This document shows, piece by piece, positions 17,102-35,150 of a stretch of 64,000 nt of DNA. Position numbers and translations under genes: made by a program. The stretch is from Eledone cirrhosa. Its lineage: Eukaryota. Location of the stretch: contig OZ024744.1 in NCBI GenBank assembly GCA_964016885.1, positions 52,390,001 to 52,454,000 on the forward strand. Reading direction: 5' to 3'. Under the pieces are notes generated by a model that did not search any database, was not told the origin of the DNA, and saw only the letters and a program-made list of their open reading frames with translations. Position 1 is the stretch's first letter. Every line of letters begins with the position of its first letter.

Positions 17102-17795
17102 ATAAGTTGAAATAAAATGAAAACGAAATTTCATTTCTCACCCTTAGTACGGCACTTACTTAAATGTAAGTATGTGTGTATACGTACATACATATATGTA
17201 TACAGACGTACAGTAGCATGCACATATATATATATATATATATATATATATATATATATATATATATATATATATATATACATATATACATACATATATG
17301 TATGTACGTATACACACATACTTACATTTAAGTAAGTGCCGTACTAAGGGTGAGAAATGAAATTTCGTTTTCATTTTATTTCAACTTATCGTTTTCGGTA
17401 TGCCTGACCGACTTAGCTCACTCGATATGCAAATTAGGCTGCTCAGCCGTTAATTTTCATAAGGAAAGTATATACTTTCGAACGTTCAACTATCTGGCAG
17501 ATGGGTATACGGTGCTGATGATAGCTAACAAGCTTGAAACTAGTACATCGTTCCTGTGTCAGTGTTGAATAAAAAGGTGACGTGGTTGCCTTAACACCGT
17601 ACGGCATAAACATTCAGGCTGTTCAGTTTGTTTACAAACGAACAAAGCGGCGTTATAATAAGCGCCGCTAAACTGTTACGTGCATATATGTATGTGTACC
17701 TGTATGTATATATATATATATATATATATATGTGTGTGCATGCTACTGTACGTATGTATACATATATGTATGTACGTATACACACATACTTACAT
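17102..17795 (+). mobile_element. ORF-less HHR repeat element (retrozyme-like), >1 unit plus inverted 5' piece, embedded in (TA)n
   Basis: atacatatatgtatgtacgtatacacacatacttacat occurs at 17290 and 17758 (period ~470). The segment 17102-17201 is the reverse complement of 17290-17389. Homologous to 34472-35150. Confidence 0.8.
17509..17551 (+). ncRNA. Type I hammerhead ribozyme
   Basis: ACGGUG-CUGAUGA-U-AGCU(AACA)AGCU-U-GAAA-CUAG-UA^CAUCGU. Stem I has 6 bp, stem III is the palindrome ACUAGU, the cleavage triplet is GUA, and AAUAAA follows ~16 nt downstream. Confidence 0.88.
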
Positions 17796-18328
17796 ATATA
17801 TATATATATATATATATATATATATATATATATATATATATATATATATATATATATATATATATATATATATATATATATATATATATTTATGTGTGTG
17901 TGTGTGTATGTGTGTGTATGTGTGTGTGTGTGTGTGTGTGTGTGTGTGTGTGTGTTGTTTGTATATGCCCTATAACTAAGAAGTTCGACAAATATAAATC
18001 TATGAAAGAAATAGCACACTTATAAATAAGTACTGGTGTTGATGTAGTCGACTCAATCCCTTCAAATGATTGAAACGCCAGCTAAAATGTGCATAAGAAA
18101 AACGAATACTATGAGAAGTTTACATTATCTTTTCTGTTTATGAACGGTAGGGTGTCACTAGAGGCACGTTTGGCTGCTATTTTTAGCAAGTAGAGCTTCC
18201 ATGGTTAACATGCTATTCATTGTCTAAATATTGTTATTGTTGTTATATAGAACAAGGTCAAGAAATTTAACCAAACGCATTCACCCATGACCAACCCGTT
18301 TTTCTTATGTCAAGGAACATAGAACCTT

Positions 18329-18500
18329 ACGGTAGAGGCTCTGACGCCATGCTTTGCAGCAAAGAGTTACGGCCCTTTATGGTCTGAGTTCAAATCCCGC
18401 CGAGGTTAACTTTGTGTTTCATCCTTACGGAGTCGATAAAATAAAGTACCAGTAATGCACTGGGATAATTGCTGGCCTTGTGCCAAACGTAGAAACACTT
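18329..18500 (+). mobile_element. SINE, same family as 13544-13726
   Basis: Sequence match, including B-box-like gagttcaaatccc and the gtcgataaaataaagtaccag core. Confidence 0.85.
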
Positions 18501-19319
18501 ATACACCAAAGATGTTCCGAGGGTAATATAGTTATCTCTGGTAGGCAGAGTCACCATCCAGAAGTTCCCTCGTTGTTTGGGTTTATTCTTATTAGTTCGA
18601 AATGGTGGCTATTTTTTCAATGTCTCTACCATCTTTCTTCATAAGAAGTTTCACTTCCGATTCTTTTATTAACTGCTTTCTTCGAAAACGCGATATAATG
18701 ACGGTGTCATTATACCATATATCTTTCGGTGTGTGGTACGGTTTTGTCTTTGTATTTCAACATTATTGTGTCGATAAATAAAGTACTAGCCTTTCTCTCT
18801 ATCTCTAGCACTCACTTAATCCGTTTATCTCCTTCCTCTTCTCCCCTTCTTTCTCTCCGTCTCTATTTATTCTCTGAATTGTTCTTGAAATTGAAATGTT
18901 CAGCAATCGTGGGTAACGACGAAATCCATCATCGTGTATGGCAGTAATGTACACATTTTACGACTTAATGAGTAAAGACGTTGTGCAACTATTTGTTAAA
19001 GTTTATGAAATATTCTTCAGTCATTTCAATGTGGATGAAGTATATATGAACCCATAACAGCTAATTGTGTCATAAGGGTACCGCCATGATATATGGCATA
19101 ATTTGGGCATTTGAAACCTGAGGGGACCTATCCCTTTCCATGTCTGAACACAGTTGATTTCTTCTTCTTCTTCGATCGATCGATCGATCGATCGATCGAG
19201 AGAATGAGAGAGAGAGAGAGAGAGAGAGAGAAAGTTTGAAAGGGAGGATGAGTGAGAAAGAAAGTGAGGAGGGGAAAAGAGAGAGAGAGAGAAGAAAAAT
19301 CGACTCCAGTAAAGAACTG

Positions 19320-19456
19320 GCTATTTTTTCATCGACATCGAAACGATGAAAAACAAAGTTGATCCCGGCGGAATTTGAACACAAAACTCAGAGTGCCGGG
19401 ACGAATACCACAAGCATTTTATCCGACGTTTTAACAACTCTGCCAATTCACCGCCA
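19320..19456 (-). mobile_element. SINE head, related family
   Basis: Reverse complement reads ggcggtgaattggcagagttgtta...gttcaaattccgccgggatcaactttg. Confidence 0.7.
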
Positions 19457-20189
19457 AGATGAAATAAATAACATATATGATTAGTGTTGTCGCAAATGTT
19501 AGTATTGGTATGTGGTGAGAGAAAGAGAAGAAAGGGAAGACAGGACCAGGTGGATGATATGACTTTTGAAAAAATGTCAATACTGTGTTGTTAAGGTGGT
19601 TTGTTTGTAGGTGCGTTTTATTTTTACGAGCTGGAACCGGTAGAACAAGCTGTGAGAGACGAAATGATTTTGTGGTGACACAGGATTAGAGTTTACAGCA
19701 ACTCTCATAATAAAATGTAGCGCTAACTGAAGCACATATAAGAGACAGTCTGTCCAATGGTACAGTCAGGTTCTTAGAAAGAGATTTCTCAGTTACCTTC
19801 AAACGATGTCCTTCATTTGCTTTTTTAACATTCATTCCTCTGCGCGCTCACACACATACGTACATCTCTAGCTCAGTCATCCTCTCTTTCGCCCTCTCTT
19901 GCTCTCTGTCTCTTTCTCTCTCTCTTTCTGTCTGGTTGTCTCTCTTCCTCAGATTGCAACCTTTACTCCATGGTTTTAAATTACTGTATTTTTTACTAAC
20001 TGTATTCTCTTGCCTTGGTTTAAAAGATATGTAAGCTGGTGGAAAAAATATTTACAATGCAGTTTCGATTCTCAGTGATCCATTTTAATTCAAATTTTTT
20101 TTTATCTGCCTCTCTCTAGTATATTATTAACTGTGTCTGTAACTGCTTTGGCATACAGTTCGCGGGTTTAGTAGGATTCCTCTGAGGTT

Positions 20190-20900
20190 GCATCCACAGC
20201 CTAAGCTTCAAGAGGCAAGTCCTCCCTCATATGGGGATAATTCTATAACACCTTCTGATAGTCTAGCCGGGACTTGTGATTATTCATACTCCGTTATTTC
20301 TGGCACCACACCAAATCTACAATGCCAGAGCCACAGAACTTTGTTGACGAAACCCCGACTATATCTAACTGGTTACATCTGGTGTCCTCCACTAATTCCT
20401 GCTACATTCCAAATGTTGTAACGTTTCAAATGCCAATGTTAATGCTTTCTCACTTCTGAGCCCTCTTTGAGGTCTTGGGTTACATAACATCTGTGTGTCC
20501 ATCATACACCTCATGGAACAGGTCGCAGGCCCATCACCTGTCTCTTTAGAGTTTGATGGAGACTGCAACATATTTTTTGTATCCTTTGTTACCTCGCACG
20601 AAAGACAATGCGGTGTGTACTTCATTTATTGGATCTGACCATACTGCAGTTATTGGTAATCCTACTTGCGTCAGTCACAAATTTGCTAGTTTCCTCAGAC
20701 CCGCGAAGACTAAGCTTTTTTTTTATTGAGGCGGCTTTTACACGCCTCGTCGTAACTATCTCGTTGGGTTGCGAGAGCTTTTCTGAGAGCTAACAACGTC
20801 ACGTTTGCTTCCATCTTTCCTAGTAGCTTCCCGCTGTTTTGTCCGGGGATGCTTATGCAACTATCCATCATATCTGGTGGCCGTATCACTATACGCCACC
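20190..20900 (-). mobile_element. RTE (Expander/Rex3-like) 5' UTR and decayed APE start
   Basis: Manual translation INIGI*NVTT...QLDIVGVSSTKFCGSGIVDL...GRTCLLKLRL matches the RTE APE N-terminal pattern (GTWNV, LDIVG). Confidence 0.65.
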
Positions 20901-33600: not shown

Positions 33601-33712
33601 CGAGATTGGGGTTTGTGGTTGAGTTTTTACATGATTTAAAGCGATATGATTCATTGATTGATTTGTAAGCACTCGGAATAAATTACCTTTTTATGATGTC
33701 TACCTGTTATTC
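30605..33712 (-). mobile_element. 5'-truncated Penelope-like element (RT + Cys linker + C-terminal GIY-YIG) with inverted terminal repeat
   Basis: VVKADKTSNVY, QFDIDEYYSSI, ITMGS, YRDDA, FLDVTL, IWYNP, CNC..P..CP...KCL, YYIGSTTTSFKSR..HRFS, CRLCNHE. The segment 30605-30655 is the reverse complement of 33661-33711. Confidence 0.9.
30644..30762 (-). ncRNA. Type I hammerhead ribozyme with greatly extended stem II, in the PLE 3' UTR
   Basis: GUGCU-CUGAGGA-AACGGUA-[~76 nt]-UACUGUU-GAAA-CAUUUG-UA^AGCAC. Stem I has 5 bp, the stem II base has 7 bp, and the cleavage triplet is GUA. Confidence 0.8.
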
Positions 33713-33981
33713 ATTCTCTCTCTCTCTCTCTCTCTCTCTCTCTCTCTCTCTCTCTCTCTCTCTCTCTCTCTCTCTCTCTCTCTCTCTCTCTCTCTCTCTC
33801 CCTCTATATATATATATATATATATATATATGGAAAAAATGAAATTTCATTTCTGACTCTTAGTACGGCTGATACTTAAGTATAAGTATGTATACGTACA
33901 TATATATATATATATATATATATATATATATATATAGTGACGAAATATAAGTCAATTGCATGAACTTATAATCCTTTATTT

Positions 33982-34037
33982 ACTGCTATATATATTTCGA
34001 TGATAGCCATTGAATGGCTATGACCTCATCAGGCAGT
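33982..34037 (-). ncRNA. Type I hammerhead ribozyme in a ~160 bp insert between microsatellites
   Basis: ACUGC-CUGAUGA-GGUCAUAGCCAU(UCA)AUGGCUAUCAUC-GAAA-UAUAUA-UA^GCAGU, then A-AAUAAA. Confidence 0.88.
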
Positions 34038-34737
34038 TAGTCAGTTCTTAGATATGCCACCTCTGTGTGTATAGGGTTGATGGTATCAGAGCCTTGGGAC
34101 ACACACACACACACACACACACATATATATATATATATATATATATATATATATATATATATATATATATATATATATATATATATATAACGACTTATAA
34201 ATATATATATATATATATATAAATGGAATAAATGAAATTTAATTTCTCACTCTTAGTACGGCTGCTACTTAAATATAAGTATATATATATATATATACAC
34301 ATATATATATATATATATATATATATATATATATATATACATATATATATATATATATATATAAATATATATATATATATATATATATATATATATATAT
34401 ATATATATATATATATATATATATATATATATATATATGTATATATATATATATGTATATATATATATATATAAACGGAAAAAATGAAACGAAATTTCAT
34501 TTCACACTCTTAGTACGGCTGTTACTTAAATATAAGTATGTATACATACATATATGTATACAGACGTACAGTAGTATGTATATATATATATACATACATG
34601 CACACATATATATATGTACGTATGGATTCACCGAACATTTATTATAATGCTCGGTGTGTTCGTAAACAAACATCCCGAATTAAGCCGTACAGTGTCTAGC
34701 AAACATCGTTGCTCATTTGTTCAACACTGACAAAGGA

Positions 34738-34780
34738 ACGCTGTACTAGTTTCAAGCTTATTAGCTATCGTCAGCAACGT
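34738..34780 (-). ncRNA. Type I hammerhead ribozyme, homolog of 17509-17551
   Basis: ACGUUG-CUGACGA-U-AGCU(AAUA)AGCU-U-GAAA-CUAG-UA^CAGCGU. Confidence 0.88.
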
Positions 34781-35150
34781 ATACCTTCCTGCCAGATGGT
34801 TGAACGTCTGAAAGTATATACTTCCTTTATGCATATTAACGGCTGAGCAGCTTAATTTGCATATCGAGTGAGTTAATCGGCTGGGGTACCGAAAAAGATA
34901 AACGGAAAAAATGAAACGAAATTTCATTTCTCACTCTTAGTACGGCTGTTACTTAAATATAAGCATGTATACGTACATACAAATATGTATACAGACGTAC
35001 AGTAGTATGTATATATATATATACATACATGCACACATATATATATATGTACGTATGGATTCACTGAACATTTATTATAATGCTCGGTGTGTTTGTAAAC
35101 AAACATCCCGAATTAAGCCGTACAGTGTCTAGCAACCATCGTTGCCCATT

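What the first reader, a model, noticed from the sequence alone, without database searches (positions are those of the whole stretch)
17102..35150. Candidate retrozyme/circRNA family: ORF-less ~425-470 bp hammerhead repeat inserted as circularly permuted, longer-than-unit copies
Seen: two loci (17282-17795 +, 34472-35150 -) carry the same non-coding unit, each with one intact type I HHR followed by an AAUAAA-like motif. Both exceed one unit in length, but they start and end at different phases of the unit. The two HHRs differ by a compensatory swap in stem I (CGGUG/CAUCG vs CGUUG/CAGCG) and otherwise mainly at tolerant positions (core N7, loop II). Established: animal non-LTR retrozymes are short tandem HHR repeats that yield circular RNAs, and PLEs are their proposed mobilisers. 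Inference: this is such a family, copied from a circular or multimeric RNA into (TA)n by a PLE RT. I do not know whether it has been described for this taxon.
Basis: partly seen in the sequence, partly recalled or inferred. Interest (0 to 1): 0.9.

Follow-up and report, generated by a model that had tools for sequence, protein, structure and literature searches.

The report
Retrozyme copied like a Penelope element
This is a roughly 430-470 base non-coding repeat with a conserved hammerhead ribozyme fold, present about 30,000 times in this animal genome, which was likely copied from small RNA circles into TA microsatellites by the enzymes of Penelope-like jumping genes, making it a new member of a known kind (retrozymes) with an unusually clear record of how the copying happens.

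Summary
Both loci are real copies of one hammerhead repeat. The genome has 29,789 matches to a relaxed core pattern, in at least three subfamilies, as dispersed copies and ORF-free tandem arrays.

- 3' ends are not dispersed: 69 of 80 arms end at two fixed phases about 58 nt apart, and only 5' ends vary.
- Inserts are often head-to-head twin arms, one ending short and one long (21 of 22 pairs). A coding Hydra-clade Penelope-like element here does the same (21 of 21).
- AAUAAA is private to locus 1 (1 of 163).
- Locus 2 abuts a Hydra fragment, but this is a chimera, not its 3' UTR.

None of 100 consecutive copies starts at the ribozyme cut site, although the ribozyme stems covary across subfamilies. 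This favours a cut-and-rejoined circular template over a cleaved linear one; uncleaved read-through RNA remains a rival. Cleavage, expression and circles were not shown, and no parent element was found.

Verdict: a new non-LTR retrozyme family with clear Penelope-type insertion anatomy.

The parts
17102..17225 (-). Locus 1 left (inverted) arm, subfamily A; its 3' end is at the long phase (about 301 nt past the cut site) and runs into (TA)n
   Evidence: it shares a G variant with the right arm seen in only these 2 of 62 distinct contexts
17282..17795 (+). Locus 1 right arm, about 1.1 units, crossing one cut site; its 3' end is at the short phase (about 242) and runs into (TA)n
   Evidence: 40 best genome matches are 99-100% identical
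17485..17569 (+). Type I hammerhead with long extended stem I (core 17515-17545, predicted cut after GUA at 17545, palindromic ACUAGU stem III with a 2-nt loop)
   Evidence: covariation
34471..35151 (-). Locus 2, subfamily B, about 1.6 units with a 253-nt terminal redundancy; its 3' end is at the long phase and runs into (TA)n
34720..34804 (-). Hammerhead of locus 2 (core 34774-34744, predicted cut after 34744)
35152..35945 (-). Degraded 3' part (GIY-YIG-type endonuclease end and start of 3' UTR) of a Hydra-clade Penelope-like element (H1), joined to locus 2 with about 3 nt (AAA) microhomology; a chimera, not the element's own end
   Evidence: the rest of the H1 UTR is absent from the window
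34219..34290 (-). Solo 'tail' (the stretch between the short and long 3' phases) between TA tracts
33826..33910 (-). Second solo tail fragment between TA tracts

Best explanation
The two loci are copies of an abundant non-coding hammerhead repeat (a non-LTR retrozyme) that is likely transcribed, likely cut by its ribozyme into unit-length RNA and rejoined into circles, and likely copied back into (TA)n tracts by a Penelope-like reverse transcriptase/endonuclease, probably of the Hydra clade. SHOWN in sequence: about 30,000 ribozyme cores; three subfamilies; two fixed 3' ends about 58 nt apart; random 5' truncation; head-to-head twin arms with one short and one long end; copies reading through the cut site; arrays. 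INFERRED: tandem transcripts cleave as double hammerheads, because stem III is a palindrome with a 2-nt loop. Host ligase would close the monomers and occasionally dimers. The PLE protein would nick both strands of a TA tract and start one cDNA at each of two internal sites on the same RNA. Each cDNA would run round the circle until it stops, and the two would be joined head-to-head. Long arrays were partly lengthened later by local duplication.
For: Copy number: 23,477 exact cores for subfamilies A+B, 2,603 for C, 29,789 with a relaxed pattern; reversed-pattern controls 0.

Positional sample of 55 loci (from the first 100 hits): 80 arms cross at least one cut site; 69 of 80 3' ends fall at two phases (37 short, 32 long); 71 of 80 run into (TA)3+; 5' ends are spread over 1-428, with 2 of 80 within 10 nt of the cut; 51 of 80 arms are longer than one unit; 30 of 55 loci have head-to-head arms. 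Of 32 pairs, 22 have both ends at fixed phases and 21 of those are short/long (p 5e-6; one duplicated locus is counted twice). Subfamily C gives 12 of 12 and the coding Hydra H1 gives 21 of 21. A tail at one end only is the published PLE mark (PMC8557442), and two internal RT start sites explain it (PMC11167929).

Cut site: 22,668 of 26,047 post-cut matches are preceded by the exact upstream 7 nt. Among the first 100, the 7 exceptions all continue into a mutated ribozyme.

Structure: stems I and II and distant helices keep pairing across subfamilies (97% of cells paired, 15 of 50 pairs changed on both sides). Circular folds have z -5.2 to -6.7.

Template: arms and units of young arrays differ by 0-0.9% against 3.0-4.4% between loci. 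L157 holds about 1.3 periods of a two-unit template whose units differ by 20 substitutions; L154 alternates ABAB. One copy sits inside a Hydra ORF with a 9-bp target duplication (L151).
Against: There is no RNA evidence of any kind. The PAc Penelope protein uses uncleaved RNA in vitro and ribozyme mutants still insert (PMC11167929), so read-through transcripts could give the same DNA footprints. Only 1 of 9 Xenopus retrozyme dimers cleaved in vitro (bioRxiv 10.64898/2026.07.22.740005).

Older or mixed arrays are heterogeneous (1.2-6% within arm). L070 does not alternate. A 31-unit subfamily C array shows variants recurring at period 7, pointing to local duplication (29 of 31 units aligned).

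The covariation counts use a structure derived from the same 13-sequence alignment, and most double changes come from three related C sequences.

The partner is not identified: H1's terminus has no similarity to the unit beyond shuffles, and 0 of 40 H1 loci join the unit directly. Hydra ORFs lie near 11 of 55 retrozyme loci but also in 3 of 12 random 10-kb windows. Naiad PLEs also target (TA)n (PMC8557442). The 55-locus sample required an exact core and comes from one chromosome end.
Confidence: 0.72

Rival explanations
1. Same family and same PLE machinery, but the template is uncleaved linear read-through RNA from tandem arrays, with no circle; arrays are rebuilt by local duplication.
For: PAc uses unprocessed RNA in vitro (PMC11167929). 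Period-7 recurrences appear in a 31-mer. Homogeneous donor arrays would also give identical arms. H1 copies also cross their own cut site.
Against: It leaves unexplained why ribozyme stems are kept with compensatory changes across subfamilies up to roughly a third divergent. Circles are shown for coral, mussel and axolotl retrozymes (PMC7229834).
Confidence: 0.2
2. The copies are orphaned terminal repeats (pLTRs) of a still-present autonomous PLE, produced by 5' truncation.
For: Locus 2 directly follows a PLE ORF on the same strand. Xenopus retrozymes match PLE pLTRs (bioRxiv 10.64898/2026.07.22.740005).
Against: The other 29 of 30 H1 copies do not continue into the unit and carry their own UTR with a different ribozyme. 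Among 215 partly overlapping loci, the PLE-adjacent cases are scattered chimeras or nestings with different families at different positions. Upstream of the ribozyme the copies continue into another unit, not into coding DNA. A rare or extinct parent is not excluded as the origin.
Confidence: 0.05
3. A satellite spread by DNA-level events (recombination, extrachromosomal DNA circles); the ribozyme is a passenger.
For: Long arrays show local higher-order duplication.
Against: Fixed 3' ends, 5' truncation, short/long twin arms identical in pattern to a coding PLE, a target duplication, and 1.1-1.6-unit dispersed copies.
Confidence: 0.03

Closest known systems
Animal non-LTR retrozymes (Cervera & de la Pena 2020, PMC7229834)
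   Same: Short, low-GC (0.36-0.39), ORF-free tandem repeats with a type I hammerhead in each unit, thousands of copies, strongly self-paired predicted circle, co-existing with PLEs.
   Different: Unit 420-583 nt, above the ~170-400 nt reported there. It carries an internal variable TA tract. The passages I read give no end-phase or twin-arm analysis. Circles and cleavage were shown there, not here.
Vertebrate retrozymes as PLE pLTR derivatives (Li, Clavereau & Pollet 2026, bioRxiv 10.64898/2026.07.22.740005)
   Same: Monomers, dimers and multimers; size within their 51-972 bp range; PLE link.
   Different: Their link is pLTR sequence homology in Xenopus, and their sample has no mollusc. Here no homologous pLTR was found, and the link is shared insertion anatomy.
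Hydra-clade Penelope-like elements (Craig et al. 2021, PMC8557442; includes Hydra-1_Obim)
   Same: (TA)n target, hammerhead, 5' truncation, inverted 5' copy, tail at one end only; H1 in this genome shows two fixed ends 184 nt apart with 21 of 21 short/long pairs.
   Different: The repeat encodes no protein, and its ribozyme and tail sequence differ from H1 and from the listed Hydra-1_Obim motif.
PAc (Poseidon of Anolis) internal RT initiation (Frangieh et al. 2024, PMC11167929)
   Same: Two internal start sites bounding a tail; both DNA strands cut and extended; AT-rich target.
   Different: The paper saw no strand difference in start site in vitro. Here the two arms of one insertion almost always use different sites.

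Membership tests
Non-LTR retrozyme | Small tandem repeats, dimers to multimers, low GC | tested here: met
   45 distinct monomers of 420-635 nt; arms crossing up to 7 cut sites in A/B and 31 in C; GC 0.36-0.39
Non-LTR retrozyme | Type I hammerhead in each unit | tested here: met
   Core, 6-bp stem I, 4-bp stem II and palindromic short stem III as described in PMC4209133; covariation; Rfam below gathering
Non-LTR retrozyme | No protein coding; not attached to an ORF | tested here: met
   Only 51-112-aa microsatellite frames; PLE neighbours are sporadic
Non-LTR retrozyme | Self-cleavage | not testable with these tools
   Fold prediction only
Non-LTR retrozyme | Expressed as circular RNA | not testable with these tools
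   No run on record as RNA was listed
PLE-type mobilisation | 5' truncation, inverted 5' copy, tail at one end, microsatellite target | tested here: met
PLE-type mobilisation | Homology to the pLTR of an autonomous PLE | tested here: inconclusive
   None to H1; other ribozyme families in 1.18 Mb of fetched DNA differ; the whole genome could not be screened
Hydra clade (for the adjacent coding element H1) | RWK, DKT and CxCx5C motifs, C-terminal endonuclease, hammerhead, (TA)n insertion | tested here: met
   Motifs read in L061, L062 and L064 against PMC8557442 section 11 and its alignment; 303 homologues, best about 40% identical; no tree was built

The most novel reading that the evidence does not exclude
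The genomic copies record the Penelope mechanism directly: one PLE complex primes two cDNAs at two different fixed sites on a single self-cut, re-ligated RNA circle (monomer or dimer) and rolls round it. The retrozyme is an independent parasite of Hydra-clade PLEs that shares RNA shape but no recognisable sequence with their ends. This would explain the one-sided PLE tail, give the hammerhead a role, and supply a 430-nt minimal template for testing both.
Probability: 0.35. Interest if true: 0.68.

Novelty: new member of a known kind. Interest (0 to 1): 0.48.

Why it matters
Retrozymes are proposed to be mobilised by Penelope-like elements through RNA circles, but the published support I read is co-occurrence, pLTR homology and detection of circles. 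This family adds counted insertion footprints that match a coding Hydra PLE in the same genome, and it maps two RT start sites to a conserved RNA region. It shows that cDNA does not stop at the ribozyme cut. Subfamily A is very young (99% identical copies), so an active partner is likely present. That makes the circle-versus-read-through question and the origin of the PLE tail directly testable with a small RNA.

Tried and rejected
Locus 2 as the 3' UTR of the adjacent PLE: rejected. AAUAAA as a conserved signal: rejected. Dispersed 3' phases: rejected.

H1 as the specific partner by proximity or junctions is not supported. Six direct joins to Hydra DNA (window, L017, L067, L075, L125, L151) involve at least three families and are compatible with chance given Hydra abundance; template switch versus nested insertion with deletion could not be told apart.

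Search for a parent with this pLTR found none. A flank comparison showed no shared non-unit flank in the rows I could read. A ribozyme survey of fetched DNA found subfamily C instead. A Pfam-family search of the genome was not available.

Expression: no RNA holder listed. The contigs laid (X1, X4, X5, X6; kind not on record) show presence and variants only. Rfam gathering was blank and its miRNA hits are microsatellite artefacts. Pfam gave nothing for the H1 ORF.

Earlier findings by place and by sequence were blank. The supplement of PMC7229834 could not be read and bioRxiv supplements are closed; either could list this family.
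Full report
Observation. The loci are 78% identical and both exceed one unit. Locus 1 is a twin-arm insertion: an inverted arm at 17102 to about 17225 and a forward arm at 17282-17795. Both arms share a variant found in no other fetched copy (2 of 62 contexts). Locus 2 (34471-35151, minus) is about 1.6 units and is joined at its 5' end to a degraded Penelope-like endonuclease end and UTR at 35945-35152. 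The AAUAAA motif is a private change in locus 1 (1 of 163 copies).

Family. The genome is 3.0 Gb. The host looks octopod-like to me from repeat content and one named Argonauta homologue of the adjacent PLE (46% identity); this is an inference and I did not identify the species. Exact cores number 23,477 for subfamilies A and B and 2,603 for a more distant subfamily C; a relaxed pattern gives 29,789. Controls were 0. A (447-583 nt) and B (420-533 nt, mostly 420-433) differ by 18%; C is 466 nt. The 40 best A matches are 99-100% identical. Units hold only short microsatellite frames.

Ribozyme. It is a type I fold with a 6-bp stem I extended into a long arm, a 4-bp stem II, and a palindromic stem III with a 2-nt loop. 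PMC4209133 describes such motifs as needing a dimer. Pairing is kept across subfamilies: 97.1% of cells are paired and 15 of 50 pairs change on both sides. That structure came from the same 13-sequence alignment, and most double changes trace to three C sequences. Predicted circles fold better than shuffles (z -5.2 to -6.7, 3 monomers, 40 shuffles each). Rfam does not reach gathering score.

Not a PLE 3' UTR. The element next to locus 2 (H1) has the RWK, DKT and CxCx5C motifs that PMC8557442 gives for the Hydra clade. It has 1,656 exact hits of its own ribozyme. None of the other 29 of 30 H1 copies continues into the unit; those shown carry a different UTR (output of 21 partly cut). One of 30 subfamily-B loci carried this ORF, the window itself. 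None of 40 positionally chosen H1 loci joins the unit directly, and H1's end is no more similar to the unit than shuffles are. Hydra coding DNA is near 11 of 55 retrozyme loci but also in 3 of 12 random 10-kb windows, so proximity shows nothing. The window junction is either a template switch or an insertion with deletion; I could not decide.

Insertion anatomy. In 55 loci taken from the first 100 exact hits on contig 1, 80 arms cross at least one cut site. Of these, 69 end at two phases about 242 and 301 nt past the cut, and 71 run into (TA)n. The 5' ends are dispersed, and 51 arms exceed one unit. Thirty loci have head-to-head arms. Of 32 pairs, 10 have one non-standard end; of the other 22, 21 pair a short end with a long end and 1 is short/short. 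Subfamily C gives 12 of 12 (20 regions) and coding H1 gives 21 of 21 (40 loci). One copy lies in a Hydra ORF with a 9-bp duplication. These are the published PLE marks, and the two ends match the two internal RT start sites that bound the tail in PMC11167929.

Template. Copying starts downstream of the cut site, so a cleaved linear monomer would yield copies beginning at the cut. Genome-wide, 22,668 of 26,047 post-cut matches carry the exact upstream 7 nt. In the first 100, the 7 exceptions all continue into a mutated ribozyme. The template was therefore continuous across the cut: a circle or uncleaved RNA. Conservation of the ribozyme favours cut-and-rejoin (inference). Young arrays and twin arms are nearly identical internally (0-0.9%) against 3.0-4.4% between loci, but several arrays are heterogeneous (1.2-6%). 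L157, L154 and weakly L167 show two-unit periodicity; L070 does not. A 31-unit C array shows period-7 recurrences, so long arrays were partly built by local duplication.

Literature seen. bioRxiv 10.64898/2026.07.22.740005: parts 1-3 of 5, all main text. PMC7229834: passages plus sections 14 and 17; supplement unreadable. PMC8557442: passages, sections 6 and 11, and supplement searches. PMC11167929: parts 1-2 of 4. PMC4209133: passages. PMC13282606: passages, with no mention of ribozyme or retrozyme. Searches for octopus plus hammerhead ribozyme and cephalopod plus retrozyme listed no description of such a family, and the unit's motifs were not in the PMC8557442 supplement. Repbase and Dfam were not searched. 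Earlier scan notes from other genomes report similar TA-targeted Penelope-type tandem repeats; I did not test them and do not count them as support.

Verdict. This is a new member of the non-LTR retrozymes. PLE-type mobilisation is well supported by anatomy, a circular template is likely but unshown, and the partner family is unidentified, with Hydra the best candidate. Interest 0.48.

Noticed in passing
window 33655-31451 (-) and 44327-43422 (-): A nearly full-length degraded Hydra-like PLE ORF just downstream of locus 2, and a further PLE RT fragment.
   Followed up: partly
window 34032-33980 (-): Another hammerhead-like motif of a different family (palindromic AUAUAU stem III), also seen in L194.
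   Followed up: no
window 38721-39099: 172-nt inverted repeat (99%) carrying two copies of a third hammerhead-like motif with GAAG in place of GAAA; copies in L172 read GAAA.
   Followed up: partly
window 39393-39506: 56-bp near-perfect hairpin element between TA tracts; related copies were seen in L150.
   Followed up: no
window 37770-35960 (-): Degraded non-LTR LINE fragment (endonuclease and start of RT; RTE-like by recall) fused to the 5' end of the H1 piece.
   Followed up: no
G000:C1:5738327-5752443 (L231-L260): 31-unit array of subfamily C with a short inverted arm and period-7 variant recurrences.
   Followed up: partly
L064 4415-4528 (reverse strand) and other H1 copies: The H1 ribozyme core reads CCGAUGA (U4 to C) with a very long stem II, in the many copies shown.
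   Followed up: no
1.18 Mb of fetched loci: More than a dozen distinct hammerhead families, suggesting many unannotated PLE or retrozyme families in this genome.
   Followed up: no
window 18330-18502, 13545-13732, 14473-14657, 61050-61241: A short interspersed repeat that also inserts repeatedly into (ATT)n sites of the H1 3' UTR; tRNA-SINE-like by recall.
   Followed up: no
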